A DNA stretch of 60,375 bases from a virus. The notes beneath the pieces were generated by a model that had not been told where the DNA came from, did no database searches, and saw nothing but the letters and a program-made list of their open reading frames with translations. A program made the translations under genes and the position numbers. The stretch is taken from positions 1-60,375 of the IMG/VR virus record IMGVR_UViG_3300046459_000309; one strand, given 5' to 3'. Positions 7,886-58,852 of the stretch are shown here, in pieces (position 1 is the stretch's first letter; each line of letters starts with the position of its first letter).

Positions 7886-7903
7886 GAGAGGTAACAACCA
7901 ACT

Positions 7904-8920: not shown

Positions 8921-8943
8921 CCTGAAACGCGAGGCATTCACGT

Positions 8944-17468: not shown

Positions 17469-19705
17469 GCGTCGCAGTCAACCTGCTGCCTCCGAACACG
17501 TCGGGCATCGAAACCGACACGAGCGGCTGGACGGCGGGAGCGAACACCACGCTGTCGAAGTCCAGCCGCTTCTACGTGGGCGCCGCATCTCTCGGGATGA
17601 CGGCGTCCGCGGCCGGCTCGGTGACCGCCACCACGTCCGCCCGCGTGGCTGTGACGACTGGTCGCGAGTACATGGCCTACGCGTATTTCGCGAACGTCGC
17701 TTCTGCCGCTGGACGGACGGCGACTGTGCGCGTCGACTGGTACGCGGCTGTGTCCGGTGGGACGGCAGTCAGCTCCACTACGGCACCGGCCGTGACGCTG
17801 CCGTCAGCCACTACATGGATGACTCCACCTCCGATGCTGCTGTCTACGGCGCCAGCGGGGGCACCGTTCGTGTCCGTCACAATCACAGTCACCGGACTGG
17901 CGTTGGGCGCTACGGTGGTGGCGGATCTGGTCAGTTTCGGAGTGCCCGCTATCATCACGGGCAATCTGCTCCCGTACGCGGTGCAGGGCTGTGAGCTGGA
18001 CGTCAGTGGATGGCGGACATACGGCACGGCGCTGGCGTCCTCGGAGTCCACCCTCGCATACGAGGGGTGGCGCTCACTGAAGGTCGGCAGCTCCGCGGTT
18101 GGGTCAGCCCGTGTGGGGACTGACGTAGTGCAGCCAGTGACTTCCGGAGTGGAGTACCACGCCTATGCGTGGGCCTACGCGCCAGAGGCCAACGCGGCAC
18201 AGGTCACGGCGATTCGCTGGTATACCGCTGACGGTACGTACACCGAGACAGTTGCATCGTGGGTTCTGCCTGCAGCTCAGTGGACACGGTGCGCCGTCAT
18301 CGGCACCGCACCGCCCGGAGCCGTTAACTGCCGCATCATGCTGGATAGTGCGTTCACCTCAACGTCACAGGTATGGCGCTACGACCAAGCAGCTCTCCGA
18401 GTAGCGCCGAAGGCCGCCGGGGAACTGCTCTCGTACAACGTGGCGGGCATGGAGGTGGACGCCAGTGGTTGGACGGCCGTCAGTGGCTGCACGATCAGCC
18501 GATCCACGGACTACGCCTATGAGAGCATCGCGTCTCTGAAGGTCACCCCGACGACGGGCATCGCGGCTGATGCCACGGTGGAGCTGGCCACCAAAGTTCC
18601 AGTCACCGCACGTCAGGGGTATCAGGCGACTCCGCGAGTGCGACTGGGGCCCACGACCGAACAGCGCTACGTCACCACCCGGTACACATGGTGCGATGCC
18701 GCGGACACGATCCTCCAGTGGACCGACCTGCAGTGGTCGCTGAATCCGACGTTGACCGGGGGGTGGTACACCCTTCAGACGAGCACCGTAGCCCCCACCG
18801 GGGCCGCATCGCTCTCTGTGAGTTTCCGAGTTCAGTCCCCTGAGACCGCCGAATCGATCTACATCGACGATGTGTCGATCGTGCCTGGCGGCCTGGCGGT
18901 CATTGCTGACGTCGTACCAGAACGGTTCGGCGCCTCCATCTTCGTGCAGGGCCTCACCACAGGCGGCTACACCTACTGGGGTCTGTGGCGGATGGGGGAG
19001 GACGGCTCGATGACTGCCGTCCGCGGTCCGGTTGGTGATCTGTCGAAGGTCTCGATCACCGGGGACACGGCCGTTGCTGAGGACTACGAGGCACCGCTAG
19101 GAACCACGGTCACCTACTACCTGAAGGTGTGGACGGTCACGACGTCCTATCGGGCGACTGGATCCCCGCCCATCGTCATTCCCGAGCCACCTCCCACAGA
19201 GATTGTCCTGAAGGATCCGGGGCTCCCCGCTCGCCAGACGACAGCGGTAGTAGCTGCTGGCGGACAGCCGCAGTGGACGCGGAGGGCAAGACAAGGCGTC
19301 AATGCGGTCCGCGGGCGCGCGAGGCCGATCATCATCTCCGACGTGCGTACCTCGCGCGAAGGGACGATGACTCTGGTCACAGAGACCGCTCAGGATCTGG
19401 CGGACATGTGGTGGCTGCTGGAGACCGGAAACACGCTACTCGTCCAGTGGCCACACCTCTGGGGCGAGGCTGACGCGTACGTCCAGATCGGCGACGTCAC
19501 CGAGGCGCCCATCGTGGACTACGCGGAGTACAGCGACCGCACGTGGACGATCCCGCTCGTCGAGGTGGACCGCCCCTTCGGCGGATCCGTCGGCAGCGCC
19601 GGCCGCACGTGGCAGACCGTGAACGACAACAGTCCCGACTGGATGGCAGTCATGTCCGCAGCCACGTCGTGGCTGGACGTCTACACCGGAGTGAATGGGG
19701 GCTAG
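17465..19705 (+). CDS. minor tail protein (distal-tail position) with three carbohydrate-binding-module-like repeats
   Basis: Three modules open with NLLPPNTSGIETDTSGW / NLLPYAVQGCELDVSGW / ELLSYNVAGMEVDASGW; first gene after tape measure. Confidence 0.8.
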   Translation: MSVAVNLLPPNTSGIETDTSGWTAGANTTLSKSSRFYVGAASLGMTASAAGSVTATTSARVAVTTGREYMAYAYFANVASAAGRTATVRVDWYAAVSGGTAVSSTTAPAVTLPSATTWMTPPPMLLSTAPAGAPFVSVTITVTGLALGATVVADLVSFGVPAIITGNLLPYAVQGCELDVSGWRTYGTALASSESTLAYEGWRSLKVGSSAVGSARVGTDVVQPVTSGVEYHAYAWAYAPEANAAQVTAIRWYTADGTYTETVASWVLPAAQWTRCAVIGTAPPGAVNCRIMLDSAFTSTSQVWRYDQAALRVAPKAAGELLSYNVAGMEVDASGWTAVSGCTISRSTDYAYESIASLKVTPTTGIAADATVELATKVPVTARQGYQATPRVRLGPTTEQRYVTTRYTWCDAADTILQWTDLQWSLNPTLTGGWYTLQTSTVAPTGAASLSVSFRVQSPETAESIYIDDVSIVPGGLAVIADVVPERFGASIFVQGLTTGGYTYWGLWRMGEDGSMTAVRGPVGDLSKVSITGDTAVAEDYEAPLGTTVTYYLKVWTVTTSYRATGSPPIVIPEPPPTEIVLKDPGLPARQTTAVVAAGGQPQWTRRARQGVNAVRGRARPIIISDVRTSREGTMTLVTETAQDLADMWWLLETGNTLLVQWPHLWGEADAYVQIGDVTEAPIVDYAEYSDRTWTIPLVEVDRPFGGSVGSAGRTWQTVNDNSPDWMAVMSAATSWLDVYTGVNGG

Positions 19706-19707
19706 GG

Positions 19708-20811
19708 ATGCAGACCGTCACATCGCAATTCCTGGAGACCCTGACAGCGTCCCACTCCATGGCGGCGTCGGTAACCGCCATGTACGCCGGATCCGTAACC
19801 GTGGCCGACCTCCCCATTGCGGACGGGTCGGTCACGGTGGATCGCGGGAGCAAGGTGCGTCGCTCGCTCTCGCTGACGATCGCAGATCCGAAGCGCCTTC
19901 CATGGGGAGCGCTAGACCCTCTCGCAGTCTACGGACAGAAACTGATGGTCTCCCGCGGAATTCGATACGCCGGCAACGCCACAGAGATGGTTCCGCTGGG
20001 CACGTTTCGCATCAACGAGCCGCAGGGGGACACCCTCCTCGGACCGGTCACTCTCACCGGACAGTCGTCGGAGTGCTACATCATCGACGACAAATTCATG
20101 GTGCCGACGTCGACCCGCGGATACACAACGTGCGTTGACGCTATCGAGTATCTGATTCGCCAAACACTCCCGGACGCCGCGATCGTCAACGCAACGGCGG
20201 GTGCCCGGAATCCTTCTTGCGCGATCATCACCTGGAACGCGAATTCGGACCGTTGGGACGCCGTACAACAGGTGGCGCTGGCGATGCAGGCAGAAATATA
20301 CGTTGATGCCCTGGACCGTTTCGTCATCGCCGACGTTCCGCAGGTGTTGACGTCTCGTGTTGTGTGGGACATCGCAGAAGGCGAAGGCGGAACGCTGATG
20401 GAGGCGTCCCGGCAAATGTCACGCACGGCCGTTTACAACGCTGTTGTGGCGAGCGGAGAGAATACCTCCTCCAACGTGGCGCCCGTAAGTGCCGTTGCGT
20501 ACGACACGGGGCCGACGAGCCCCACGCGATGGAGCGGCCCCTTCGGGCACGTTCCGAAATTCATCTCCTCCGCTCTGTGGACGACCGTCGGAGCCTGCCA
20601 GGCAGCCGCGGACTATGCGCTATTCGACGCCATCGCTCCGAATGTATCGACGTCGATCGACGCGATTCCGAATGCCGCTCTGGAAGGCGGTGACTGCATT
20701 CGCGTGTCCTACGCCGGCCGCAAGGAGCTGTTCATCGTGCAGTCCGTGACGACACCCCTAACAGCACAGGGATCCGCGTCCCTCGTCCTGCGAGGCGGGA
20801 AGGAGGAGTAG
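19708..20811 (+). CDS. minor tail protein (tail-tip position)
   Basis: Frame of ORF 19543..20811; ATG 19708 3 nt after upstream stop; 367 aa. Confidence 0.75.
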   Translation: MQTVTSQFLETLTASHSMAASVTAMYAGSVTVADLPIADGSVTVDRGSKVRRSLSLTIADPKRLPWGALDPLAVYGQKLMVSRGIRYAGNATEMVPLGTFRINEPQGDTLLGPVTLTGQSSECYIIDDKFMVPTSTRGYTTCVDAIEYLIRQTLPDAAIVNATAGARNPSCAIITWNANSDRWDAVQQVALAMQAEIYVDALDRFVIADVPQVLTSRVVWDIAEGEGGTLMEASRQMSRTAVYNAVVASGENTSSNVAPVSAVAYDTGPTSPTRWSGPFGHVPKFISSALWTTVGACQAAADYALFDAIAPNVSTSIDAIPNAALEGGDCIRVSYAGRKELFIVQSVTTPLTAQGSASLVLRGGKEE

Positions 20812-21071: not shown

Positions 21072-21092
21072 GGACTTTGAGGAGCACCGAGA

Positions 21093-21701
21093 ATGCCCAA
21101 GCCCGATAGCTACGGTCAGAACGTCCAGTACCCGGTTCTGTCTGACGCCCCCAACATCGAAACCGCGCTGCAGGCTCTGGTAAACGGAGTCGTTCCGTTG
21201 ACGGTCATGCGTTTTCCCAACGCCAACGCGCGCGCTGCGACGCTGACCGGAAGTTACAAACCCGTTCCGGGGATGATTACCTACCTCATCGCTGAAGACC
21301 GGTGGGAGCGACGAGACGGCGACAACGTTTGGCGCCCGTTCAGCCCCGGTGTGTGGAAGCCCATTACCTACACGACGGGATACACGTCGCAATCGGGGGC
21401 GCCGGGGTATCGAATCATCAACAACGAGGTACAGCTCCGCGGAACGATTCGGCGAACGGCAGCGAACACCGACCTGGTAACAAACACGGACGTGCATTTC
21501 GCGACGCTCCCATCGGAAGCGCGCCCAATCGGCGGGTACCGCTACTTCCTGGCAGCAGCAAACTTCGTCAATACGTCGGGGACGAGCTACTTCTCCGGAC
21601 GAATCGGGATCGCACCTGACGGCAGCATGATCTACGTCATGCCGCTGAACTCGAAGAGCGAATGGCTCTCCCTGGACGGCATCCGCTTCTCCATCGACTA
21701 A
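21093..21701 (+). CDS. minor tail protein / fibre-like
   Basis: 202 aa; SD GAGGAG; last ORF before a strong terminator. Confidence 0.65.
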   Translation: MPKPDSYGQNVQYPVLSDAPNIETALQALVNGVVPLTVMRFPNANARAATLTGSYKPVPGMITYLIAEDRWERRDGDNVWRPFSPGVWKPITYTTGYTSQSGAPGYRIINNEVQLRGTIRRTAANTDLVTNTDVHFATLPSEARPIGGYRYFLAAANFVNTSGTSYFSGRIGIAPDGSMIYVMPLNSKSEWLSLDGIRFSID

Positions 21702-21776: not shown

Positions 21777-22682
21777 ATGGGTGAAATCTGGATCAAGGAA
21801 GCCGAACGGCTGGGGGACGGGAGCATCGGAGGCGCGATGGACTCGCCGACGGCGCCCGGTCGTGTCGTCTGGCACACCACGGAGAGCGGTCACGGTGACG
21901 CAAGCTTCGTCAACGTCGGCGCCTACCTGACCAACATTGGCGCGGAGCCGCACCTCCTGTATGACCCCACCACTGACCGGCTGGGGCAGTACGGACCGCT
22001 GAACCAGTCCGCCCGCGCTCTGAAGAACGACGGCGGGACGCGGACGAACCGCACCGGACGGGTCTGTATCCAGATCGAGGTACTTGCCCGCGCGAGCGTC
22101 CCTTTCACGGGCTACTGGAAGCCGGGCAAGAACTTCCAGGCCCTCATGCGCGCCGTGCGTTCGTGGGGTGTCCCGGACACTTGGCCAGGCGGATCCTGTG
22201 CCCCTGGTGCCTCCCGCAACCGCACCACGTGGGCGACGAAGGGCGGTCACTACGGACACTGCCATGTGCCCGGCAATGATCACTGGGACCCGGGCAACAT
22301 CGACCGTGTCGGCCTCCTGAAGGCGGCTCCGGTCAGCACCCCCACCCCGGCGCCGGCCAAGCCTGCGACGCCGGCCAAGCCTGCGGCGAAGCCAACGGTC
22401 GACCTCTCCAACCTGATTGCGGCCGCTCGTCGCGACCCGGGCCTGAAGCAGGGCGGCACGACCCACGCCGCGGACGTCCGCATCGTCGAAGCGGCGCTCA
22501 AGGCGGAGGGCCTGCTCGCTGCGGTCTACGCAGGGGACGGCTCCTTCGGTTCCTCCAGCATCGCCGCGTACCGCAAGTGGCAGCTGAAGTGCGGCTACAC
22601 CGGATCCGCGGCCGACGGCATACCGGGCAAGGCATCGCTGGAGAAGCTGGCGGCCAAGCGCGGTTTCAAGGTCAAGGCGTGA
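21777..22682 (+). CDS. endolysin: amidase-like N-terminal domain + peptidoglycan-binding C-terminal domain
   Basis: ATG 21777 after GGAGGGGA; WHTTES...IQIEV...HCHVPGNDHWDPG; PTPAPAKPATPAKPAAKP linker; PG_binding_1-like DGSFGSSSIAAYRKWQ...DGIPGKASLEKL. Confidence 0.85.
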   Translation: MGEIWIKEAERLGDGSIGGAMDSPTAPGRVVWHTTESGHGDASFVNVGAYLTNIGAEPHLLYDPTTDRLGQYGPLNQSARALKNDGGTRTNRTGRVCIQIEVLARASVPFTGYWKPGKNFQALMRAVRSWGVPDTWPGGSCAPGASRNRTTWATKGGHYGHCHVPGNDHWDPGNIDRVGLLKAAPVSTPTPAPAKPATPAKPAAKPTVDLSNLIAAARRDPGLKQGGTTHAADVRIVEAALKAEGLLAAVYAGDGSFGSSSIAAYRKWQLKCGYTGSAADGIPGKASLEKLAAKRGFKVKA

Positions 22683-26015: not shown

Positions 26016-26037
26016 GTCCGTGAGTCGACTTGCGGAC
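26016..26037. promoter_or_regulatory. GTCGAC palindrome, copy 3 (gtccgtgagtcgacttgcggac)
   Basis: Read directly; 14 nt upstream of the TTGTGT -35-like hexamer. Confidence 0.65.
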
Positions 26038-26051
26038 GCGTACACACAATG

Positions 26052-26080
26052 TTGTGTCGGCCGCCACACCCGCCTACGCT
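26052..26080 (+). promoter_or_regulatory. sigma70-like promoter (TTGTGT-17 nt-TACGCT), apparently leaderless
   Basis: The -10-like hexamer ends 6 nt before ATG 26087, which has no SD. Confidence 0.5.
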
Positions 26081-26086
26081 CGCCGT

Positions 26087-26713
26087 ATGTCGACCTCACC
26101 CGGGCCGCTCCTTCAGGCGCTGGACGCCGTATGGAAGCATGCCCAAACTCATACCCCGGAGCTGCCGCCTGTGCGCATGGCGCTGTCTCCAGCACCCCCT
26201 ACCGCACACCATGGCAGCGAGCGGTGGACGTGGGACGACGAGGCAGTGACGGGCCTTGTCGTCAGCGCGGACACCCTCTCTGCCGGCTCTGACGCCACAC
26301 TGGAGCTACTGCTCCACGAGGCCGCGCACCTCCTCTGTTTCGTTCGAGGCGTGCAGGACACTTCGTCCCGCGCCGGCGTCTACCACAACGCCGCATATCG
26401 GGACGCTGCTGCGGAGGTGGGGCTCTATTGGCCGCCGGACCAGGAACGTCATCCCCGGAAGGGATACGTTTCTCCTGAACTCACAGACGCCACGAGAGCG
26501 CAGTACGCCGACGTGGCAATGGAGCTGGAGCGAGCCATCCCGCTGGTACTGCCACACCTCGTCCTCCCCGAGACGCCCAGTACCCGCACGTCAGACCGAC
26601 GGACGCGGGCCTGCAAGTGCGCGCGGCCGCGGACCATCAGGGTGTCTCCCACGGTGGCGGAGAAGGGGCCAATCATCTGTGGCATCTGCGAGCAGCCGTT
26701 TACCGAGACGTGA
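26087..26713 (+). CDS. SprT-like HExxH zinc-metallopeptidase-domain protein with C-terminal zinc ribbon
   Basis: Frame of ORF 26030..26713; LLLHEAAHLL; ACKCARP...ICGICEQ. Confidence 0.7.
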   Translation: MSTSPGPLLQALDAVWKHAQTHTPELPPVRMALSPAPPTAHHGSERWTWDDEAVTGLVVSADTLSAGSDATLELLLHEAAHLLCFVRGVQDTSSRAGVYHNAAYRDAAAEVGLYWPPDQERHPRKGYVSPELTDATRAQYADVAMELERAIPLVLPHLVLPETPSTRTSDRRTRACKCARPRTIRVSPTVAEKGPIICGICEQPFTET

Positions 26714-26799
26714 CAACGGACAGGTAAGGTCTGGCTCATGTCAGTGCCTTGCGGTACTGTGACCGCGCCTGCCCCCCATGGTTGATTCGAGAGGTTCCA

Positions 26800-27540
26800 A
26801 TGCCTAGTGAGCTGGACCGTCGCCCCGATACAGGGAGCCCGGCGGCCGTTGACATCGACGACCTACCCACGCTCCAGGTAGAAGACCTGGCGGAGGAGTC
26901 GGAGGGGCAGCTCGTAGCCCGCGGGGCAGCCCTCGCGCGGGAGTATTTCAAGATCGAGGGGAAGGCAACGACCCTCCTCAAGAACCTTGCCGTGACGCAG
27001 GTTGCCTTGCGGGTCAAAATGGACGATCCGCGCGGGACATCGCACGAGTACAGGACCGTCGTGTCGGAGATGTACCGGTCACTGAACATCGCGCCTGACC
27101 GCATCGAACGAACACAGGCGTCCGTCAGGTGGCACATCAGTAACGTGCTCCGCCGCCACCTAACCCCGCGTGAGCTGGAGAAGAACAATCTCCAATCCAC
27201 GTCAGCGCTGGAGCGCATGCAGGACGCCAGGGCTGTAAACGCGATCATCGTCAAGGCGTCGAAGGTGGCGTCCGCTGTCGACAAGTCCACGCCGAAAGGG
27301 CCGGCGAAGAAGGGGCAGCCAGCCGCCCCCGAGCAGGCCGGCCAGCCAGTCAGGGCGACGGCGGACCATCTCAGGCTCGCTGAAGTGGCTGGGAACATCC
27401 TGGACAAGTTCGACCGGAACGTAATCAAGCGGGACATGACGGACGGGCAGCGGTCCGCGCTGGACAAGCAGTTGGCCGCAATGGAGCGCAAGCTAGCGTC
27501 CCTGCGGAAGCTGACACAAAAGCCCAGCTCAAAGGCGTGA
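26800..27540 (+). CDS. hypothetical protein
   Basis: Frame of ORF 26749..27540; ATG 26800 after GAGAGG; 246 aa. Confidence 0.7.
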   Translation: MPSELDRRPDTGSPAAVDIDDLPTLQVEDLAEESEGQLVARGAALAREYFKIEGKATTLLKNLAVTQVALRVKMDDPRGTSHEYRTVVSEMYRSLNIAPDRIERTQASVRWHISNVLRRHLTPRELEKNNLQSTSALERMQDARAVNAIIVKASKVASAVDKSTPKGPAKKGQPAAPEQAGQPVRATADHLRLAEVAGNILDKFDRNVIKRDMTDGQRSALDKQLAAMERKLASLRKLTQKPSSKA

Positions 27541-27588
27541 TCGTCGCCTGACGTCAGCCGGCGTCCTCCTCCGCCCCGGTCAGACTCT

Positions 27589-27693
27589 GGCCAAAAGGAC
27601 GAACTAGACCCCTATTTCTAACCTCTCCTTAAGAGCCTTGGGAAGAAGTTAGAAATAGGGGTCTAGTTTGTCATTCTGTCGCCAGACTGTCCG
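27589..27693. repeat. ~105-bp AT-rich hairpin element, copy 1 (20-24 bp stem 27603-27622 / 27648-27667)
   Basis: actagacccctatttctaac ... gttagaaataggggtctagt; flanks shared with 58701-58803. Confidence 0.85.
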
Positions 27694-27724
27694 CCGGGAC
27701 GAGGCGGGAAAATCTTGAAAGTCC

Positions 27725-27756
27725 CGTGCCACATCCTCTCTCCAGCACCCCATAAC
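27725..27756 (+). promoter_or_regulatory. bipartite promoter-like motif, copy B
   Basis: cgtgccacat-cctctctc-cagcaccccataac; ends 41 nt before ATG 27798. Confidence 0.55.
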
Positions 27757-27797: not shown

Positions 27798-28601
27798 ATG
27801 GCCGGAGTGAGCACGATCAAGCGCGGCGGGAGCCGCTTCTACGTAGATCCGAGTGACTCGCGCATCAAGGTGCCCGGCGTGACGAGCGTCGTGGGGATGG
27901 AGCCCAAGCCGTTCCTGGTCTTCTGGGCGGCGAATGAGGCGGCCGACGCAGCAGTTGCCAACTGGGACATCGTCAGCCAGCTCGTGGAGCGCGACCCTGC
28001 CGGCGCGAAGGACTACCTGAAGAACGCACACCGTCGCAAGTCGAAGGCGGCAAGTGATCTGGGATCGTCCGCCCACACCTACTTCGAGAAGCTGGCGCGG
28101 GGGGAGGACGTCAACCTGCGCCACGTGCACGCCGACGTACAGCCTCACGTGAAGCACTTCCGGGAGTTCCTGGACGAGATCCAGCCTGAGTTCATCCACC
28201 TGGAGGAGACCGTCTGGGACGATGACATCGCCGTAGCCGGCTCGTTCGACGCCATCGCGAAGATCGACGGTGAGACGGTGATTATCGACTGGAAGACCTC
28301 CAAGGCGGTCTACGAGTCGGTAGCTCTCCAGCTCAGTGCCTATCGCTACGCCACCCGCATCATTCTGGCGGAGAGCGGAGAGTCCATTCCGATGCCGGAG
28401 ATCACGGGCGGTGCCGTCCTCCACGTGCGTCCGGAGGCTTGGGCGTTCCACCCCATCGAGTGCGGCCGTGAGGTCCATGAGACGTTCAAGGCGCTGCGAG
28501 CGGTGTTCGAGTGGGACCGCGAGGGTAAGAAGGGCGTCGTCGGTAAGCCCATCGCGTCCGGCGGCGTCCGTCTGACGGGGACAGAGCGGAGGGCGGCATG
28601 A
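27798..28601 (+). CDS. PD-(D/E)XK exonuclease (RecB/Cas4 family)
   Basis: GSFDAIAKIDGETVIIDWKTSK...QLSAYRYA motif set. Confidence 0.8.
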   Translation: MAGVSTIKRGGSRFYVDPSDSRIKVPGVTSVVGMEPKPFLVFWAANEAADAAVANWDIVSQLVERDPAGAKDYLKNAHRRKSKAASDLGSSAHTYFEKLARGEDVNLRHVHADVQPHVKHFREFLDEIQPEFIHLEETVWDDDIAVAGSFDAIAKIDGETVIIDWKTSKAVYESVALQLSAYRYATRIILAESGESIPMPEITGGAVLHVRPEAWAFHPIECGREVHETFKALRAVFEWDREGKKGVVGKPIASGGVRLTGTERRAA

Positions 28602-37182: not shown

Positions 37183-38358
37183 ATGCCGATCCTGAGCCTG
37201 TGCTCGGGGTATGAGGGCATCGGCCTGGCCGTCGAAGCCTTGACCGGCGACACCGTCGCATACGTCGCCGACGTGGAAGAGGCAGCAGCCACGATCCTGG
37301 CGCACCGATTCCCGGACGCCCCAAACATCGGGGACATCACAGCCTTCGACTGGACCGAGCTTCTCGGCCTCGTCGACATCATCACGGCGGGGTTTCCCTG
37401 CCAGGACATCAGCAACGCAGGCAAGCGGGAGGGGATCGACGGTGACCGGTCTGGCATCTATCGGAACGTCGTTGAGGCGATTCGCGTCCTTCGACCGCGA
37501 CTCGTCTTCCTGGAGAATGTCTCCGCGATCCGGTCGCGCGGGCTCTGGCAAGTCGTCGCCGACCTGGCCTCGGTCGGGTATGACATCCGGTGGATATGCC
37601 TACGAGCTTCCGACGTGGGAGCCGCTCACCACCGAGACAGGTGGTTCGCCGTCGCCTACCCTGCCGACGCCGACGGCCCGCGACTGGAAGTCGGGTGCGT
37701 CGAACCTACACGGCACGAACAGCCGGCCTCTGTCGGAGGTGGCACTCGTGCTGACGAGCCTGAGTGCAGAACATGCGGATGCGGAGAGTCCTTCCACGAC
37801 CACGGGGGCTTCTGCGCGGGATGCTCGGGCTGCTCTGACTCCGAGCTTGGTCGTCCTGAAGACGCCGACGGCACAGCTCGGGTCGAACGGGGCTGCGCAG
37901 CATCCGGAGAAGCGCAAGAGGGGGGGCACGGTCCCACTCTCGATGACGAAGTTTCCTTCCTTCTTCCCCACGCCGACAGCGTCGGATGGGACGGGCGGGC
38001 CGGGGACGAGCCCGAACCGGAAGGGTGGGGAGAACCTGCGTACGACGGTCACTCGCCTGCCGGATGGTGGGGCGACTACCTCCCTGCCATTCGACGGCAG
38101 GAACGCCTGAGCGGACGTGCTGCCCCTGCGCCGACGGAGACGGGACCGCGAGGTGGGCGCCGGCTGACGGCTCGGTTCGCGGAATGGCTGATGTGGCTGC
38201 CTGACGGCTGGGTGACCGCAGTTCCTGGCCTGGCGCCGAAGGGCCGTGACCCTCGGTCCAGGCAACTGAAGGCAATCGGTAACGGCGTTGTACCCGCGCA
38301 GGCATACGAGGCGTTCCACTACCTGCTCACGTTAGACACTCACGAAGAGGAGAACTGA
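37183..38358 (+). CDS. DNA (cytosine-5) methyltransferase; central target-recognition part looks out of frame
   Basis: Motifs LCSGYEG (I), GFPCQDIS (IV), ENV (VI), HHRDRWF (VIII), GNGVVP (X) in this frame; see finding on frame +1 ORF 37442..38110. Confidence 0.7.
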   Translation: MPILSLCSGYEGIGLAVEALTGDTVAYVADVEEAAATILAHRFPDAPNIGDITAFDWTELLGLVDIITAGFPCQDISNAGKREGIDGDRSGIYRNVVEAIRVLRPRLVFLENVSAIRSRGLWQVVADLASVGYDIRWICLRASDVGAAHHRDRWFAVAYPADADGPRLEVGCVEPTRHEQPASVGGGTRADEPECRTCGCGESFHDHGGFCAGCSGCSDSELGRPEDADGTARVERGCAASGEAQEGGHGPTLDDEVSFLLPHADSVGWDGRAGDEPEPEGWGEPAYDGHSPAGWWGDYLPAIRRQERLSGRAAPAPTETGPRGGRRLTARFAEWLMWLPDGWVTAVPGLAPKGRDPRSRQLKAIGNGVVPAQAYEAFHYLLTLDTHEEEN

Positions 38359-40567: not shown

Positions 40568-40704
40568 TCGGCGACGAACCCAACCTCCGCATCGTCCGCG
40601 CCGACCCCGACGAAGAGCCGGTTTGCTGCGACAAGCCGCGCAGCGTCTACGCGGCGTGGCCCTGGCTGACGGAGGAGTTCATGAGAGAGGTGGAAGGAAC
40701 ATGA
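40564..40704 (+). CDS. hypothetical protein (46 aa, not in ORF track)
   Basis: GTGA overlap upstream, ATGA downstream; VIGDEPNLRIVRADPDEEPVCCDKPRSVYAAWPWLTEEFMREVEGT. Confidence 0.4.
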   Translation: MIGDEPNLRIVRADPDEEPVCCDKPRSVYAAWPWLTEEFMREVEGT

Positions 40705-40871
40705 GGGCCTATCGGAAGTCGGCCACGCTTCATCAGTACTGCGTCTACCTCACCACCGAGGAGCGGGAGCGGCTTCTCGAAGAACTGCAACGGGTCGTCG
40801 ATCCGTCCTTCTGGCCGACGCTGTCGCGGCTCTACGCACACCTGAACGCACCGAGAGGAGAGGGCGCATGA
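40701..40871 (+). CDS. hypothetical protein (56 aa)
   Basis: Frame of ORF 40431..40871 from ATG 40701. Confidence 0.5.
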   Translation: MRAYRKSATLHQYCVYLTTEERERLLEELQRVVDPSFWPTLSRLYAHLNAPRGEGA

Positions 40872-41406: not shown

Positions 41407-41791
41407 GGGCACCGCCTGGGAGTCCCTCTGGACCGCCTACATCCGCGAGCACCACAACCCCGCTGCCCATCGCAACGTCCAGACGGGCTCGAAGGACATC
41501 GGCGACGTCAGCGGCTACTACCTCCACGCCTCGGAGCTGAAGGCGGAGCGGACGATCACCCTCTCCTCCTACATCGAGCAGGCGAACCGGGAGGCCGTCC
41601 ACGCCGGCGAGCCCTTCGGCTGCGCGGTCGTCAAGCGGCGCATGAAGGGCGTCGCGGACGGCTACGTCGTGCGCGATGTGGCGACGGATGTGCGGCTGCT
41701 GAACCGGCTGCAGGAGATGGAGGGCGCTCTCCAGGACGTCGCCTTCGACCGCTGGTACGCACTCGACAAGCAGCACAGGGAGGCCGCATGA
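41384..41791 (+). CDS. PD-(D/E)XK nuclease, Holliday-junction-resolvase-like
   Basis: KGTAWE...DIGDVSG...ELKAER...VVKRR pattern resembles Hjc/RecU-type resolvases; weak. Confidence 0.5.
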   Translation: MANPSKAKGTAWESLWTAYIREHHNPAAHRNVQTGSKDIGDVSGYYLHASELKAERTITLSSYIEQANREAVHAGEPFGCAVVKRRMKGVADGYVVRDVATDVRLLNRLQEMEGALQDVAFDRWYALDKQHREAA

Positions 41792-42060: not shown

Positions 42061-44547
42061 GTGCGACTGACCGACATCCTGGATCGATTCGGCAGGGTCG
42101 AACAAGATCATGATGGCTGGCTGGCTCTGTGCCCCGCGCACAACGACCAGACGCACCCCTCACTCAAGCTGACGCTGAAGTCTGACGGCATGCTGCTCAT
42201 GGTCTGCCGGACCGGCTGCGCGAAGGCGGACATCCTGAAGGCTGCCAACCTGACGGCCGCGGATCTCTTCAACGTCGACGGCCAGGGCGTGAAGACGATC
42301 AGCGCGAAGGCGCCGGAATCCATTGGCCCGGGGGAGATCGCCGGACTCCGCATGTTCGTCGACGAGGCGTCGGCCGCACTGGCTGGCACCCCGGAGGCGG
42401 TGGCGTACCTGGCCGACCGCTTCGGCCTCACGGTGGAGCAGGCGGAAGACCTGGACGTCGGATACGCGGCGCCCGGAGACCGCTCGCAGCCCTGGCTGAC
42501 GCGCGGCTTCACCCGGTACCCGCGGCTGACTGTCCCGCTCATCGGCTTCGACGGTGTGGTTCGCGGCCTTCAGGGGCGGGACCTGTCCGGCAAGTGCCCC
42601 GCACGTTGGGTGTCGCTGGCAAACGTCGACGGCAAGACGTGGGCCAAGTACGGCCAGCTCTCCGCCGGCACGGGCTACGACACGATCCTTGTGACCGAAG
42701 GCCCGGGGGACGGACTGACTTCCGTCGGTGTCGGCTATGACGCGCTGATCATCCGTGGCGCCGGTCTGGCCCGGAACGCCGGCCTCGTCGCCGAACTCGT
42801 GGAGCAGCTCCGCGGCCGTGACGTTGTGCTGGCCTTCGACCCTGACGACGCAGGAGCGCGCGGTATCGGCGCCCTGGCAACGGCGCTCGTGGCCGACGGC
42901 AATCACCCGAGGCAGCTCCCGTTCCCCAACGCCAAGGAGGACCTGACCGACTGGCGGGAGAGGACGCCAGCGACGTTCCCCGCGGAGCTTCACACCGCCG
43001 TTCGCTCCGCCCCTGTGGTGGACCTGGAGCAGCCCAAGACACCCGCACCCACACCGCCGAAGGAGGCTGACATGCCCGCCACTGACGCCGCACTGGACAC
43101 CATGTCGGAGTCCGCGCGCAGCCTCTTCGACAACACCGACGTCGGCATTGCCGTCATGCTCCGCGACTTCATCACCGCCAACGGCGGGGGAGTCCGGTAC
43201 GCCAAGGGGCTCGGCTACCTCTGCTGGGACGGCAAGGTGTGGGCGCCGGGCGGCGACAAGGTCCGCGAGTACCTCCATCTGATGGGCGCCGAACTGATCG
43301 CTTCGGCCGACGACTCGAAGCGCCGGCTGGCACTGAAGGCGCTGTCGAACCGAAGCATCGACGCCGTGATGAAGGAGCTGCCGAGTGCGCCGGGAGTGCC
43401 CGCGCAAGCCGCGGACTTCGACGCGAATCACGAGCTGCTGAGCGTGGAGAACGGGACGGTCAACCTGCGGACTGGCAAGCTTCAGCCACACGCCCCGTCG
43501 GACATGATCACCAAGCGCCTCGATGTCGCTTACCACCCGGACGCACCTGCGGAGCGTTGGAACCAGTTCCTGACGGAGGTGTTCCCCGGACACCCCGATC
43601 TCCCTGGATTCATGAAGCGGCTCGTCGGCTACGGATGCACCGGGAGCACGTCGGAGCACTGCTTCGCCTTCCTCCACGGGCAGGGGAGCAACGGAAAGTC
43701 GGTGTTCCTTGACGCGCTTATCCACGTGTTCAAGGGCGTCACGCAAGCGACGCAGTTCAGCACCTTCGAGAAGTCCGTGAACGTCGGCCAGGCAAGTCCC
43801 GAACTGGCGTCCCTCCGTGGGGCGCGGCTCGTGACGGCGTCGGAAACGGAGAAGTACAGCCGCCTGGCTGAGGCGCTCGTGAAGCAGCTGACGGGAGGCG
43901 ACCCGATCACGTGCCGCTTCCTGAACCAGAACCCGTTCACCTACGTGCCGTCGTTCCTCCTTCTTGTGGCCGGCAACTTCAAGCCCGCGATCCTGTCGCA
44001 GGACGAGGGGACCTGGCGTCGGGTCAAGCTGATCCCCTTCGACGCCACGTTCTCCTACGCCCGTGGCAACAAGGACACAACCCTCCCCGCCAAGCTGCGC
44101 GAGGAGGCGGAGGGCATCCTCGCTTGGTCCGTCGCCGGCGCCGTGGAGTGGTACGCGAACGGACTTGGTGAGCCGACGTCCGTCGCCACCGCCACGCAGG
44201 ACTACCGGGAGTCGGAGGACCGCCTTCAGGAATGGCTGAACGCATGCCTCGTCAAAGAGGAAGGCGCGCGGGTTGCCCCCATGGCTGCCCGACGTGCCTA
44301 CGCGGAGTGGGCAGAGGATGCCGGACTTGACCGCAAGGAGCGGCTGTCTGGTTGGGCTTTGGCCGTCGAACTTGAGAGCCGCGGGTTCAAGAAAGCTAAG
44401 AAGCGGGGCGCTTGGGGCTTTGACGGACTGCGCCTCATGACGGACCAAGAGAAGCAGACCGCGAGTCGACTCGCGGAGGCCGTTGACGAGCCCGCCGGCC
44501 ATGCCGGTCCAACCGATGTGTTTGGCCAGCCCAAAAAGGAGGCGTGA
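42061..44547 (+). CDS. bifunctional DNA primase / SF3 helicase (Toprim + P4/D5-type)
   Basis: GTG after GGAAGGAGAG; LALCPAHNDQTHPS...CRTGC, Toprim ILVTEGPGDGL and VLAFDPDDAG, Walker A GQGSNGKS. Confidence 0.9.
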   Translation: MRLTDILDRFGRVEQDHDGWLALCPAHNDQTHPSLKLTLKSDGMLLMVCRTGCAKADILKAANLTAADLFNVDGQGVKTISAKAPESIGPGEIAGLRMFVDEASAALAGTPEAVAYLADRFGLTVEQAEDLDVGYAAPGDRSQPWLTRGFTRYPRLTVPLIGFDGVVRGLQGRDLSGKCPARWVSLANVDGKTWAKYGQLSAGTGYDTILVTEGPGDGLTSVGVGYDALIIRGAGLARNAGLVAELVEQLRGRDVVLAFDPDDAGARGIGALATALVADGNHPRQLPFPNAKEDLTDWRERTPATFPAELHTAVRSAPVVDLEQPKTPAPTPPKEADMPATDAALDTMSESARSLFDNTDVGIAVMLRDFITANGGGVRYAKGLGYLCWDGKVWAPGGDKVREYLHLMGAELIASADDSKRRLALKALSNRSIDAVMKELPSAPGVPAQAADFDANHELLSVENGTVNLRTGKLQPHAPSDMITKRLDVAYHPDAPAERWNQFLTEVFPGHPDLPGFMKRLVGYGCTGSTSEHCFAFLHGQGSNGKSVFLDALIHVFKGVTQATQFSTFEKSVNVGQASPELASLRGARLVTASETEKYSRLAEALVKQLTGGDPITCRFLNQNPFTYVPSFLLLVAGNFKPAILSQDEGTWRRVKLIPFDATFSYARGNKDTTLPAKLREEAEGILAWSVAGAVEWYANGLGEPTSVATATQDYRESEDRLQEWLNACLVKEEGARVAPMAARRAYAEWAEDAGLDRKERLSGWALAVELESRGFKKAKKRGAWGFDGLRLMTDQEKQTASRLAEAVDEPAGHAGPTDVFGQPKKEA
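44459..44476. promoter_or_regulatory. GTCGAC palindrome, copy 7 (ccgcgagtcgactcgcgg, perfect 18 bp), inside the primase-helicase CDS
   Basis: Read directly; translated TASRLAEA. Confidence 0.55.
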
Positions 44548-57005: not shown

Positions 57006-58505
57006 ATGGAACCCATGAGGGTATTCACGTACCGGCGCATCTCACGCGTCACCGAACGGACGACAAGCATCGAGCGGCAGGGGGAACACCTCGTCGCAGA
57101 ATGTGAACGCCGAGGATGGGTCATCGTGGACGATTTCGCAGACGAGGGCGTCAGCGGGGCCACCGACCCATCAGAGCGGCCGTACATGTCGAAGATGCTT
57201 GCCAGACTGGATGAGGTCGACGCAATCGTCTTCTATCGCCTGGATCGCCTGTGCCGGTCGACGTTGGCGTTCGCGGAGCTGATGGACCTCTGCAAGCGCG
57301 TTGGTGTCGCACTCGTCAGCTGCACCGAACCTCTTGACCTCTCGTCACCTATGGGCGTCGCCATGGCGGAAATCATCGCCGTGTTCGCCAAGCTCGAAAG
57401 GGCAATGATCCGGGAGCGGTCGATGGATGCCCGGCGAAAGGGGATGGAGGATCAAAAGTTCGTCGGAGGACGATTCCCTTACGGCCTGACGCCGGCGCCG
57501 CACCCGTCCGGAAAGGGACGGGCGCTCGTCCGCGACGAAGAAGCCGCGAAGGTGATCCAACGGATGGCCGCAATGGTTGTAGCCGGACACAGCGCGACGG
57601 CTATCGCCAAAATCCTGAACGCGGACAAGGTACTCACGTCCCGCATGAAGGGTGCGACCGCCAAACTGGCCGGCGGACACGAAGCACAGGTGACGTACTG
57701 GCGGGGCAACGCCGTGCGCGCCGTACTGCGCAACAAGGTGCAGCTGGGCTACCGCATCCTGCCCAACGGGCGGCCGGAAACGGGCACCGACGGCCTACCG
57801 CTCATTGTGTGGGAGCCAGTTCTCACATGGGACGAGTGGGAAGCCGTACAGAGCGCACTGGACACCATGGCGGCCACCCGCACGCTACGGCACGACGCCT
57901 ATTGGCTTCAGGGCGTACTCAGGTGCGGTGTGTGCGACGCCAGGATGACTCAAACCGTCGCTCACGGTCGTACGGGGCTCAAATGCGCCCAGCCCAACGA
58001 GAACAGGCATAAGCCCTCCCCGTTCATTCGGGCCGACGACCTGACCGACTGGGTCAACGCACACATGATGGCCGTGCTCGGGTGGTTGCCCATCGTCGAA
58101 AACATCTGGCACGCGGGCAGCAACAGCGCTCAGGAGCGCCGAGAGGTCGCCACCGCTATCAAGCGGCTGCGCGAGGACCGGAGCAAGGGGCTGTACGAGG
58201 GTGAGGAGGATGAAGCGGAATTCGAAGCGGCGATGACCACGCTGATGGCCAAGCGTCGCGTGCTGGCCAGCCTGGAGGACGAAGAGCCACGCTGGGAAAC
58301 CGTGAGCACGGGACGACGCTTCCGTGACGTGTGGGAGTCGTCCAGCGAGGAAGCCCGCGCATCCATGATGCAGAACGCGGGACTTGTGGTCCGCATCGAG
58401 CCGGCGGGAGGCAAGCGACTGCCTGTAGGGGAGCGTGCTCGCATCGAGCCTGAGGACCCAATCGCTACGAGGTTGGCGGAAATCGAAGCGGAGGAGCGGG
58501 AATAG
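57006..58505 (+). CDS. int: large serine recombinase (integrase)
   Basis: YRRISR...SIERQ, GVSG, IVFYRLDRLCRS (resolvase-type catalytic domain); zinc ribbon CGVCDARM...LKC; coiled-coil C-terminus; ATG 57015 is an alternative start. Confidence 0.92.
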   Translation: MEPMRVFTYRRISRVTERTTSIERQGEHLVAECERRGWVIVDDFADEGVSGATDPSERPYMSKMLARLDEVDAIVFYRLDRLCRSTLAFAELMDLCKRVGVALVSCTEPLDLSSPMGVAMAEIIAVFAKLERAMIRERSMDARRKGMEDQKFVGGRFPYGLTPAPHPSGKGRALVRDEEAAKVIQRMAAMVVAGHSATAIAKILNADKVLTSRMKGATAKLAGGHEAQVTYWRGNAVRAVLRNKVQLGYRILPNGRPETGTDGLPLIVWEPVLTWDEWEAVQSALDTMAATRTLRHDAYWLQGVLRCGVCDARMTQTVAHGRTGLKCAQPNENRHKPSPFIRADDLTDWVNAHMMAVLGWLPIVENIWHAGSNSAQERREVATAIKRLREDRSKGLYEGEEDEAEFEAAMTTLMAKRRVLASLEDEEPRWETVSTGRRFRDVWESSSEEARASMMQNAGLVVRIEPAGGKRLPVGERARIEPEDPIATRLAEIEAEERE

Positions 58506-58613: not shown

Positions 58614-58639
58614 GTTATCCACAGGCGCCTGTGGATAAC
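58614..58639. promoter_or_regulatory. perfect 26-bp palindrome made of two inverted TTATCCACA boxes
   Basis: gttatccacaggc|gcctgtggataac; TTATCCACA equals the classic DnaA-box 9-mer. Confidence 0.7.
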
Positions 58640-58700
58640 TACAGTGAGTGCTGATGGCGGGTCAATTTGTAGCGCTGCGTAGCTGCTTGCGTACCAGATT

Positions 58701-58803
58701 GGCCAAATGGACGAACTAGACCCCTATTTTCAAACCTTCCTTAACGCGTTAAGAGAGAAGTGAAAATAGGGGTTAGTTTGGCATTCTGTCGCCAGACTGT
58801 CCG
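58701..58803. repeat. ~105-bp AT-rich hairpin element, copy 2
   Basis: ggccaaatggacgaactagacccctattttca ... tgaaaataggggttagtttggcattctgtcgccagactgtccg; arm changes relative to copy 1 are compensatory. Confidence 0.85.
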
Positions 58804-58831
58804 GGGGTGGAGACGGCTCATGATCATCCCC

Positions 58832-58852
58832 ATGCCACATGCACCCCATAAC
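58832..58852 (+). promoter_or_regulatory. remnant of the bipartite promoter-like motif (atgccacat fused to gcaccccataac, spacer deleted)
   Basis: Read directly; lies upstream of the tRNA region. Confidence 0.35.

What the first reader, a model, noticed from the sequence alone, without database searches (positions are those of the whole stretch)
27589..27693. A ~105-bp AT-rich hairpin element present twice (27589-27693 and 58701-58803) with compensatory arm changes
Both copies share the flanks ggccaaa-ggacgaactagacccctattt and aaataggggt-tagtttg-cattctgtcgccagactgtccg. Both fold into a 17-24 bp stem. Copy 1 arms are ...tatttctaac / gttagaaata... and copy 2 arms are ...tattttca / tgaaaata.... 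The arm differences preserve pairing while the loops diverge (copy 2 loop holds its own palindrome cttaacgcgttaag). The elements are markedly AT-rich in a GC-rich genome. Each lies about 30 nt upstream of a CGTGCCACAT-type motif (full at 27725, remnant at 58832). Covariation argues for selection on structure. Candidate roles are an insulating terminator-promoter module, a structured sRNA, a protein-bound cruciform, or a small mobile (MITE-like) repeat.
Basis: seen in the sequence. Interest (0 to 1): 0.62.

Follow-up and report, generated by a model that had tools for sequence, protein, structure and literature searches.

The report
Paired boundary hairpins in actinophage genomes
A long AT-rich palindrome sits at exactly two fixed places in this Streptomyces phage (after the repressor gene and after the integrase gene), and related phages of three host genera carry their own version at the same two places; it most likely works as a strong transcription stop between prophage-state genes and lytic genes, though a DNA-level role is not excluded.

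Summary
The window is a complete 60.4-kb phiC31/Samy-like Streptomyces phage. The two copies are long near-perfect palindromes (about 137 and 105 nt; RNA fold z = -10.3 and -4.4). They are the two most AT-rich spots in the genome. Copy 1 lies between the phiC31-type repressor gene and the exonuclease gene. Copy 2 lies between the serine integrase gene and the tRNA array. Each is followed by a phage promoter motif, which earlier notes of this scan assign to the phage's own sigma factor.

Samy and 10 prophages carry homologous copies at the same sites, with 1-3 copies per genome, so it is not a MITE. Pairing is kept through many double changes, but with no strand bias. Attoomi, Shaeky, Arthrobacter phage Pumpkins and Microbacterium phage SuMoo each have their own two-copy palindrome at the same two sites; phiC31 has a weakly folding two-copy repeat there.

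Published Samy lysogen counts fall about 136-fold across copy 1. My best reading (0.42) is a hairpin insulator or terminator at the boundary between lysogenic and lytic genes. A DNA-level element (origin or regulator site, 0.30) and an RNA processing or antitermination site (0.15) remain open. I found no description of the element in Rfam or in the paper searches I ran.

The parts
27571..27707 (+). Copy 1 (post-repressor type). A full imperfect palindrome of about 137 nt. Core arms are 27599-27622 and 27648-27671, with the apex at 27623-27647. Outer arms are CCGCCCCGG.../...CCGCCGGGACGAGGCGG.
   Evidence: Sequence. RNA fold -73.5 kcal/mol, z -10.3. DNA fold z -8.0. Covariance-model hit 107.5 bits.
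58700..58803 (+). Copy 2 (post-integrase type). Arms are 58711-58732 and 58761-58781, with one bulged base. The apex contains its own palindrome, CTTAACGCGTTAAG.
   Evidence: Sequence. RNA fold -45.6 kcal/mol, z -4.4. Covariance-model hit 110.1 bits. 87% identical to copy 1.
26749..27540 (+). Gene upstream of copy 1. It is the homologue of Samy SAMYPH_32, annotated 'putative immunity repressor' (phiC31-type), and is preceded by a SprT-like gene at 26030-26713.
   Evidence: tblastn gives 45.6% identity to the Samy repressor gene. Samy annotation. Synteny in 12 relatives.
27724..27756 (+). Long-spacing phage promoter motif CCGTGCCACAT-N10-CAGCACCCCATAAC. It heads the early operon, which begins with the exonuclease gene at 27798-28601.
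   Evidence: Repeat family D2, four full copies. Exonuclease identified by PHROG 298. Assignment to the phage's own sigma factor comes from earlier notes e1-3667349 and e1-3667348 and was not tested here.
57006..58505 (+). Large serine integrase gene, upstream of copy 2.
   Evidence: PHROG 95, E = 7e-98. An integrase lies upstream of the element in L019, G001, G002, G003, G075, G076, G137, Samy, Attoomi, Shaeky, Pumpkins and SuMoo.
58831..58852 (+). Short-spacing variant of the phage promoter motif (CATGCCACAT-GCACCCCATAAC). It heads the tRNA array at 58980-60186.
   Evidence: Alignment with Samy shows the same 10-nt shorter spacer. The short form is also at the post-integrase site of G001, G002, G003, G133, G137 and G006. 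tRNAs.
58614..58639 (.). Inverted pair of DnaA-box-like words (GTTATCCACAGG CG CCTGTGGATAAC), 60 nt upstream of copy 2. It is a neighbouring feature and may not belong to the element.
   Evidence: These are the only exact TTATCCACA matches in the window. TCCACAGG-N2-4-CCTGTGGATAAC is conserved upstream of the post-integrase copy in 8 relatives.

Best explanation
The element is a structure-dependent transcriptional insulator. It is a very long hairpin with an A-rich 5' arm and a U-rich 3' arm, closed by an invariant CCCC/GGGG clamp.

It forms in RNA transcribed out of the two same-strand units that stay active in the prophage: the SprT-repressor operon and the integrase gene. It stops that transcription, and also destabilises or blocks any read-through, before the phage promoter that heads the next lytic block. 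Those blocks are the exonuclease/early genes and the tRNA/packaging side.

Because every gene of the phage is on one strand, the two copies divide the circular or integrated genome into separately controlled arcs.

Shown:
- the position and synteny;
- the stability of the hairpin;
- conservation of pairing through compensatory changes;
- a drop in RNA of more than 100-fold across the homologous copy in Samy lysogens.

Inferred:
- that the hairpin itself causes the drop;
- that copy 2 acts in the same way;
- that the likeness of the two copies within a genome comes from gene conversion rather than from a shared recognition factor.
For: (1) Position. Copy 1 follows the repressor homologue and copy 2 follows the integrase. 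Each is 29-32 nt ahead of a phage promoter motif.

(2) The same arrangement is found in Samy and in prophages and viral contigs L013, L019, L026, G001-G004, G006, G133 and G137.

(3) Published Samy lysogen raw counts (PMC11302927, S1 Data). The repressor gives 3353/2435/1678/967/750/737/943 reads. The exonuclease gives 26/15/13/8/7/7/4 reads, about 136-fold less for genes of similar length. Table S3 lists SprT, repressor and integrase as expressed in 10 of 10 non-inducing conditions; the exonuclease is not listed.

(4) In the 255-nt Samy gap the palindrome is the only strong structure.

(5) Hairpin stability is -46 to -93 kcal/mol in 24 copies.

(6) Pairing is conserved: 92.6% of cells paired, 10 of 18 basal pairs changed on both sides, 0 of 500 shuffles as high, and slid controls at 57% or less. 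Across the whole arms, 32 of 46 columns have two or more Watson-Crick pair types.

(7) In three prophage remnants (G075, G076, G138) the hairpin stays just downstream of an integrase or recombinase-like match, although the promoter and tRNAs are gone. In G138 that match is weak.

(8) Several lineages have a real U-run after a GC-rich stem segment. Examples are SuMoo GACGG-UUUUU, Attoomi CAGGGCAC-UUUUCUU, and Samy and G133 CAUUUUUGG.
Against: - The simple terminator scan calls neither window copy nor the Samy copy, because there is no run of 5 T in 8 directly after a stem.
- Attoomi, Shaeky and phiC31 (both sites) and Samy copy 2 already have a GC-rich terminator-like hairpin upstream of the palindrome. 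So the palindrome is at most a second terminator there.
- There is no strand bias of the kind expected for an RNA read from one strand. G-U-compatible mismatches number 53 on the + strand and 39 on the - strand, with 100 other mismatches. The mean energy difference E(+) minus E(-) is -1.2 kcal/mol, and the + strand is the more stable in 12 of 25 copies.
- Post-repressor palindromes extend about 75 nt either side of the centre, well past any U-run.
- An ordinary terminator need not be AT-rich, need not be more than 100 nt long, and need not be the same sequence at both sites.
- At Samy copy 2, counts per kb do not fall (integrase 2494 reads over 1533 nt; SAMYPH_95 316 reads over 243 nt). The two vary independently, so nothing can be read from that site.
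Confidence: 0.42

Rival explanations
1. The element acts as double-stranded or extruded DNA. It would be a cruciform-prone, AT-rich palindrome used as a cis site. Possible uses are a paired replication origin or unwinding element, in the manner of P4 ori/crr or the promoter-linked origins of T7 and T4; or a landing site for a regulator or nucleoid protein such as Lsr2 that controls the two promoters heading the lytic blocks.
For: - There is no strand asymmetry in mismatches or folding energy.
- The cores are the two lowest-GC spots of the genome.
- Each lineage has its own sequence, but the two copies within a genome match (72-100%). This holds in six lineages from three host genera. It is the pattern expected when a site co-evolves with a trans-acting protein.
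- Pumpkins, SuMoo and phiC31 arms carry repeated TGACG/GTGAC words that resemble iterons.
- A conserved inverted DnaA-box-like pair and CCTCGTCG direct repeats lie just upstream of the post-integrase copy.
- The cumulative GC skew has its minimum at 26,597, near copy 1, and its maximum at 60,163, near copy 2 and the genome end.
- The palindrome lies between a terminator-like hairpin and the promoter in Attoomi and Shaeky.
- The distance from the post-repressor palindrome centre to the -35 element is nearly fixed, at 91.5-93.5 nt in about 7 of 10 copies.
Against: - Binding sites do not need continuous pairing over 45-60 bp. Yet variable positions are compensated along the whole arm.
- The apex differs freely between the two copies of one genome (window, G004, G006) while each stays a hairpin.
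- Many copies have a GC-rich tip (ACGCGCGT; SuMoo GGGG-TCT-CCCC). From general knowledge of cruciform extrusion, this should hinder extrusion starting at the centre but help single-strand hairpin nucleation.
- DnaA-like boxes are absent at copy 1.
- The GC skew is confounded with the split between late and early genes.
- The distance from the post-integrase copy to the promoter varies from 82 to 100 nt.
Confidence: 0.3
2. The element is an RNA site that is acted upon rather than a plain stop. One version is an RNase III substrate that sets the stability of repressor and integrase mRNAs, in the manner of lambda sib retroregulation or T7 processing sites. Another is a nut/put-like site through which a lineage-specific factor lets RNA polymerase read on into the next block during lytic growth.
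For: - The stem has 24 or more uninterrupted base pairs. From general knowledge, this is long enough for RNase III.
- It lies downstream of the integrase gene, as lambda sib does.
- It occurs in two lineage-specific copies per genome, as nutL/nutR and putL/putR do.
- The basal arms are conserved in sequence between the two copies, whereas the apex is conserved only in structure.
- It is retained next to int in remnants.
Against: - The copies lie upstream, not downstream, of the promoters they accompany.
- There is no G-U strand bias.
- In Samy, attP lies upstream of int, so integration does not separate the hairpin from int as it does for sib.
- No candidate trans factor was identified, and there are no transcript data.
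Confidence: 0.15
3. The element encodes a discrete small RNA.
For: The structure is stable and conserved.
Against: - There is no promoter-like site within or just upstream.
- No Rfam family reaches threshold; the only hits are generic sub-threshold miRNA-precursor hairpins, on both strands.
- The minus-strand ORF drawn over the Samy copy has 1-10 reads.
- The symmetry gives no preferred strand.
Confidence: 0.04
4. The element is a selfish palindromic repeat (MITE-like) with no function for the phage.
For: It has terminal inverted symmetry, and the outer ends are better conserved than the interior.
Against: - The window has exactly two copies.
- Every carrier has 1-3 copies, always at the same two syntenic sites. 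Only 6 of 150 further sampled Streptomyces genomes carry it, and none has dispersed copies.
- Analogous pairs sit at the same sites in distant lineages.
Confidence: 0.03

Closest known systems
Rho-independent (intrinsic) terminators, especially bidirectional A-tract/hairpin/U-tract terminators and tandem terminators. Also the phiC31 early-region terminators without poly-U tails (Ingham, Hunter and Smith 1995, Nucleic Acids Res; cited from memory, paper not held in the library).
   Same: It is a stable hairpin at the 3' end of transcription units, with an A-rich 5' arm and a U-rich 3' arm. In Samy the RNA level falls sharply across it.
   Different: It is 100-150 nt long and AT-rich, where the usual form is 20-40 nt and GC-rich. 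It has no clean unpaired U-tract in the window. The same sequence occurs at two sites and is kept alike within a genome. It is often preceded by a more ordinary GC-rich hairpin.
phiC31 120-bp two-copy repeat (NC_001978 21649-21768 and 40428-40547)
   Same: It occupies the same two syntenic positions: after c/gp54 and before gene 1, and after int and before the tRNA. Identity between the two copies is 76%. It lies directly upstream of an early-type promoter and has no CIR operator nearby.
   Different: No sequence similarity: the covariance model scores 13 bits or less. It folds only weakly (z -1.7 and -2.3).
Lambda sib/tI retroregulator downstream of int, and T7 RNase III processing hairpins
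   Same: These are long hairpins downstream of int (sib), or repeated similar hairpins between same-strand genes (T7).
   Different: Integration does not separate the hairpin from int here. RNase III cleavage was not tested. A second copy follows the repressor gene.
Lambda nutL/nutR and HK022 putL/putR
   Same: Two lineage-specific structured copies per genome, placed at the heads of the two main lytic arms.
   Different: nut and put sites lie downstream of their promoters, inside the transcript. These copies lie upstream of the adjacent promoter.
Bipartite or promoter-linked phage origins (P4 ori + crr; the T7 primary origin; T4 oriF/oriG)
   Same: These are AT-rich cis sites beside phage promoters. 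P4 has two related sites per genome, bound by its primase-helicase.
   Different: No initiator binding or initiation has been shown here. Continuous hairpin pairing is not a feature of those origins.
REP/BIME and Correia-type extragenic palindromes (MITE-like)
   Same: They are extragenic palindromes in 3' regions that can terminate or stabilise transcripts.
   Different: Those families are dispersed and present in many copies. This element has two fixed syntenic copies.

Membership tests
Intrinsic (Rho-independent) terminator | Stable RNA stem-loop | tested here: met
   MFE -73.5 kcal/mol (z -10.3) and -45.6 kcal/mol (z -4.4). The 24 homologues range from -46 to -93 kcal/mol.
Intrinsic (Rho-independent) terminator | U-rich tract directly 3' of the stem | tested here: inconclusive
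   The consensus scan calls none of the copies. The 3' arm is U-rich but mostly paired with the A-rich 5' arm. Clear U4-U6 runs follow a GC-rich stem segment in SuMoo, Attoomi, Samy, G133 and L026.
Intrinsic (Rho-independent) terminator | Lies at the 3' end of a transcription unit, and the RNA level falls across it | tested here: inconclusive
   The position criterion is met. A fall of about 136-fold is seen only as gene-level counts, at the homologous Samy copy 1. Samy copy 2 is uninformative.
MITE / dispersed palindromic repeat | Many copies at variable insertion sites | tested here: not met
   The window has 2 copies. Carriers have 1-3 copies, all at the two syntenic sites. 6 of 150 further sampled Streptomyces genomes carry it.
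MITE / dispersed palindromic repeat | Target-site duplication and empty sites in relatives | not tested
   No duplication was evident by eye. No formal test was made. Distant relatives carry a different palindrome at the site rather than an empty site.
Any described RNA family (Rfam 15) | Score at or above the family's gathering threshold | tested here: not met
   The best hits are eukaryotic miRNA-precursor models at 22-41 bits, against thresholds of 63-107 bits, on both strands.
Lambda sib-type retroregulator | Hairpin downstream of int that integration at attP separates from int | tested here: not met
   In Samy the att repeat lies 43 nt upstream of int. The hairpin therefore stays next to int in the prophage.
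Lambda sib-type retroregulator | RNase III cleavage of the full hairpin | not testable with these tools
   The stem is 24 bp or longer, which is compatible, but no cleavage data exist.
nut/put antitermination sites | Located in the transcribed leader, downstream of the promoter they serve | tested here: not met
   Both copies end 29-32 nt upstream of the adjacent promoter motif.
Replication origin (initiator boxes plus AT-rich unwinding element) | AT-rich segment flanked by initiator-binding repeats | tested here: inconclusive
   The cores are the lowest-GC spots of the genome. A DnaA-box-like inverted pair and direct repeats lie near copy 2 only; none lie near copy 1. Initiation itself cannot be tested here.
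phiC31-type CIR repressor operators | Palindrome of about 17-22 bp, present in many copies across the early region | tested here: not met
   The window's CIR-like family (CTCCGTGAGTCGACTCACGGAG, 9-11 copies) is a different sequence, and no copy lies near either element. The phiC31 CIR is CCTACTCACGTGAGTAGG.

The most novel reading that the evidence does not exclude
The paired palindromes are a conserved two-site cis system of the phiC31 supercluster of temperate actinophages (Streptomyces, Arthrobacter, Microbacterium). A lineage-specific trans-acting factor would read both copies. Candidate forms are a bipartite replication origin bound by the phage primase-helicase, or a nut-like pair that gates entry into the early and the late/packaging arcs. 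The two copies would stay alike because they co-evolve with that factor.
Probability: 0.3. Interest if true: 0.8.

Novelty: new variant of a known kind. Interest (0 to 1): 0.6.

Why it matters
phiC31 and its relatives are the workhorses of Streptomyces genetics, and their integrases are used widely. Samy-type prophages affect Streptomyces development. If the element is an insulator, it explains how a phage with every gene on one strand keeps the expressed repressor and integrase genes from leaking into lytic genes. It would also offer a compact, very strong terminator part for high-GC hosts.

If instead it is read by a trans factor (an origin, or an antitermination or regulator site), it would mark the two control points of the lytic programme in a large group of actinophages whose origin of replication and early/late switch are, to my knowledge, still undefined. 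In either case annotators should stop calling ORFs across it, as was done for SAMYPH_33.

Tried and rejected
- BLASTN of copy 1 against 50,697 phage records found nothing. The exact 21-mer found nothing in viral contigs.
- Searching viral contigs with the repressor protein gave no loci.
No reads could therefore be laid on the window, and read laying was not usable.
- The phiC31 genome paper (PMC148434) is not held. The phiC31 promoter, CIR and terminator papers were not retrievable, so statements about them rest on my memory and on the phiC31 sequence itself.
- The covariance model found no homologue in phiC31.
- BLASTN of the Samy and Attoomi elements found only those phages themselves.
- The MAFFT-based RNAalifold consensus recovered only the basal helix, because of register slips in the C and T runs. 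I therefore made my own arm-by-arm alignment.
- The strand-bias test was uninformative in the sense that it showed no bias.
- Readings considered and rejected: MITE (copy number and synteny); attP or integrase site (the integrase varies down to 27% identity while the element stays alike); CIR operator (different sequence); host sigma-70 promoter inside the element (no match).
- TCGAAC...GTTCGA in the arms resembles the two halves of the actinobacterial LexA box. They are about 70 nt apart, so I treat this as coincidence.

Full report
THE WINDOW. The 60,375-base window is a complete phage genome with a 127-bp terminal direct repeat and 65.5% GC. By a GC3-based ORF filter, essentially every convincing gene is on the + strand. 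The gene order is: structural genes, tail fibre, dNMP kinase, SprT-like protein, repressor homologue, exonuclease, early/replication genes, XRE-type regulator, serine integrase, tRNA array. This is the phiC31 layout. The nearest named relative is Streptomyces phage Samy, whose exonuclease is 72.6% identical at the protein level.

THE OBSERVATION. A search of the genome with copy 1 finds only copy 2, at 87% identity and E = 2.8e-27. A covariance model also finds only these two.

The structures are bigger than reported. Copy 1 has a 24-25-bp uninterrupted stem inside a palindrome of about 137 nt (27571-27707). Its RNA MFE is -73.5 kcal/mol (z = -10.3), and its DNA fold has z = -8.0. Copy 2 gives -45.6 kcal/mol (z = -4.4) as RNA. 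The two cores are the two lowest-GC 60-mers in the genome, at 37% and 40% against 65.5 +/- 5.3%.

CONTEXT. Copy 1 starts about 30 nt after the stop codon of the repressor homologue (26749-27540). It ends 29-32 nt before a copy of the repeated promoter motif CCGTGCCACAT-N10-CAGCACCCCATAAC, which heads the exonuclease/early operon.

Copy 2 lies 195 nt after the serine integrase gene. It ends 29 nt before a version of the same motif whose spacer is 10 nt shorter, followed by the tRNA array. The short form is not a remnant. Samy, G001, G002, G003, G133, G137 and G006 all have the short form at this site. This agrees with earlier notes of this scan (e1-3667349, e1-3667348), which assign the motif to the phage's own sigma factor.

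The window's CIR-like operators (CTCCGTGAGTCGACTCACGGAG) occur 9-11 times, but none lies near either element.

HOMOLOGUES. Samy carries both copies at the same two sites: 26390-26520, after SAMYPH_32 'putative immunity repressor', and 58654-58759, after the integrase. The first Samy copy is covered by an annotated minus-strand ORF, SAMYPH_33.

A pattern scan and a covariance model (R1) recovered further copies. They are in viral contigs L013, L019 and L026 and in prophages of Streptomyces and Kitasatospora.
- Genomes G001-G004 each hold exactly two copies, 26-30 kb apart on one contig.
- In an even sample of 150 further Streptomyces genomes, six more carry it: G006 and G133 with two copies each; G137 with three copies on three contigs, one of them decayed; and G075, G076 and G138 with one copy each.

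tblastn confirms the synteny. One type is SprT - repressor - element - exonuclease. The other is integrase - element - (short promoter) - tRNAs.

The repressors are only 42-47% identical to the window's (66% in G133), and the integrases fall to 27%. The element nevertheless stays about 60-80% identical at the nucleotide level.

G076 is a remnant: integrase - element - small resolvase, flanked by host genes. G075 shows the same integrase and second-recombinase matches, and G138 a weaker recombinase match. In these three, then, the hairpin persists near an integrase or recombinase gene without the downstream promoter and tRNAs. The copy numbers and the fixed synteny reject a proliferating MITE.

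STRUCTURE CONSERVATION.
- Basal helix. On 24 copies, 92.6% of cells are paired and 10 of 18 pairs change on both sides (27 cells). 0 of 500 shuffles reach any measure. Sliding the partner columns by one to three positions gives 57% pairing or less.
- Whole arms. An arm-by-arm alignment gives 817 Watson-Crick cells, 53 G-U-compatible on the + strand, 39 G-U-compatible on the - strand and 100 other mismatches. 32 of 46 columns show two or more Watson-Crick pair types. An example is G138, with CGCACTGGACCC/GGGTCCAGTGCG where the consensus has CGAACTAACCCC/GGGGTTAGTTCG.
- Strand bias. There is none. The mean E(+) minus E(-) is -1.2 kcal/mol, and the + strand is the more stable in 12 of 25 copies.

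So the pairing is under selection, or is maintained by palindrome-correcting mechanisms. The data do not say whether the hairpin forms in RNA of one strand, in RNA of both strands, or in DNA.

CONCERTED EVOLUTION. In 5 of 9 genomes the two copies are 87-100% identical to each other, while the best match to another genome is 83% or less. No signature separates post-repressor from post-integrase copies. In the window, G004 and G006 the two copies have drifted to 67-70% identity. The drift is mostly in the apex, and each copy remains a hairpin. So the basal arms are conserved in both sequence and structure, and the apex in structure only.

A WIDER PATTERN. Other phiC31-like lineages have unrelated or barely related palindromes, in two copies, at the same two sites.

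| Phage (record) | Copy before the exonuclease | Copy after the serine integrase |
|---|---|---|
| Attoomi (NC_047905) | 21085-21205 | 40637-40728 |
| Shaeky (MT701595) | about 19355-19460 | about 41560-41665 |
| Arthrobacter phage Pumpkins (PP978775) | 22125-22328 | 37232-37427 |
| Microbacterium phage SuMoo (PQ184831) | 20321-20526 | 42120-42221 |

The exonuclease-side copy of each of the four folds strongly, with z from -5.8 to -9.5. phiC31 has a 120-bp two-copy repeat at these sites that folds only weakly.

In SuMoo the promoter-like tail of the repeat recurs many times in the genome, while the palindrome occurs only twice. Some outer-arm words recur across lineages: AAAGTGNC, GTGTCGA and TGACG.

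In Attoomi and Shaeky (both sites), phiC31 (both sites) and Samy copy 2, a shorter GC-rich terminator-like hairpin precedes the palindrome. The simple scan does not call these hairpins either.

EXPRESSION EVIDENCE (published, sister phage). In Samy lysogens the SprT-like gene, the repressor and the integrase are among the nine genes expressed in all ten non-inducing conditions. The exonuclease is not listed (PMC11302927, Table S3).

Raw counts from S1 Data:
- repressor: 3353, 2435, 1678, 967, 750, 737, 943;
- minus-strand ORF over the hairpin (SAMYPH_33): 10, 3, 10, 3, 6, 4, 1;
- exonuclease: 26, 15, 13, 8, 7, 7, 4.

That is about a 136-fold fall across a 255-nt gap whose only strong structure is the palindrome. 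At copy 2 the integrase (2494 reads over 1533 nt) and SAMYPH_95 (316 reads over 243 nt) have similar densities and vary independently. That site is therefore uninformative, and the region after it appears to have its own expression in lysogens.

INTERPRETATION. The best-supported reading is a structure-dependent insulator at the two places where same-strand units that are active in the prophage (SprT-repressor; integrase) abut lytic promoters.

In favour:
- the synteny in every lineage examined;
- the Samy fall in RNA;
- the arm polarity, with an A-rich 5' arm and a U-rich 3' arm closed by an invariant CCCC/GGGG clamp;
- true U-runs in several lineages;
- retention next to int in remnants.

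Against:
- there is no canonical U-tract in the window;
- GC-rich hairpins already lie upstream in other lineages;
- the length and AT-richness are extreme;
- the post-repressor palindromes extend beyond any U-run;
- there is no strand bias;
- the two copies are persistently alike within each lineage.

That last feature needs either frequent gene conversion or a shared trans factor. This keeps a DNA-level reading alive. The element could be an origin or unwinding element. Supporting hints are the conserved DnaA-box-like inverted pair and direct repeats upstream of copy 2, and the GC-skew extremes at 26.6 kb and 60.2 kb, although the skew is confounded by the late/early gene split. It could also be a regulator or Lsr2 site. 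An RNA processing or antitermination reading also stays open. I put these readings at 0.42, 0.30 and 0.15. An sRNA gene and a selfish repeat are unlikely.

WHAT IS KNOWN. No Rfam family matches. The Samy paper does not mention the element. Literature searches found no description. The older phiC31 papers could not be read. It is possible that the phiC31 120-bp repeat was noted there.

LIMITS. The expression evidence is gene-level and comes from a sister phage. The wider pattern rests on five lineages examined by hand, not on a systematic survey.

Noticed in passing
window 58614-58639: A perfect 26-bp palindrome, GTTATCCACAGGCGCCTGTGGATAAC, made of two inverted exact DnaA-box words (TTATCCACA). 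These are the only exact matches in the genome. TCCACAGG-N2-4-CCTGTGGATAAC is conserved about 65-75 nt upstream of the post-integrase hairpin in Samy, L019, G001, G002, G003, G133 and G137.
   Followed up: partly
window 58560-58610: Direct repeats CCCTCGTCGACGCCGCC, two copies, between the integrase stop and the DnaA-like palindrome. Similar CCTCGTCG repeats occur at this place in Samy, G001, G002 and G133. They look iteron-like.
   Followed up: no
window 58831-58852, and Samy 58879-59121: The short-spacing promoter form is conserved at the post-integrase site. In Samy lysogens the region after it (SAMYPH_95) has read densities like those of the integrase but varies independently, whereas the long-spacing promoter after copy 1 is silent. 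The two spacings may therefore be regulated differently.
   Followed up: partly
window 27708-27721; relatives: A small GATC-centred palindrome lies about 19 nt upstream of the -35-like word of both promoter types. In Samy, L026 and G001 it reads GAAGATCTTC. In the window it reads AAAATCTTGAAAG at copy 1 and ATGATCAT at copy 2.
   Followed up: no
whole window: The cumulative GC skew has its minimum at 26,597 and its maximum at 60,163. It changes sign at the late/early boundary although all genes are on one strand.
   Followed up: partly
Samy OR263580.1 26345-26548 (L005 3735-3938): The annotated minus-strand ORF SAMYPH_33 lies almost entirely inside the palindrome and has 1-10 reads. It is probably not a gene.
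   Followed up: partly
L118 (G076:C30) 7450-10264; L099 (G075); L102 (G138): Prophage remnants. In G076 the order is serine integrase - hairpin - small resolvase (Resolvase + HTH_7), flanked by host genes. G075 shows the same integrase and second-recombinase matches. G138 shows a weaker recombinase match. Each of these genomes has a single copy of the element.
   Followed up: partly
L116 (G137:C66 8721-8854): A third, decayed copy whose right arm is partly deleted. It is possibly a second, degraded prophage in that genome.
   Followed up: no
window 27549-27556: The palindrome TGACGTCA lies just upstream of copy 1. TGACG/GTGAC words recur in the arms of the analogous palindromes of Pumpkins, SuMoo and phiC31.
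   Followed up: no
window 58980-59059 and 59090-59171: Rfam gives tRNA matches of 28.5 and 31.1 bits (threshold 29) just after the short promoter and ahead of the regular tRNA array.
   Followed up: no
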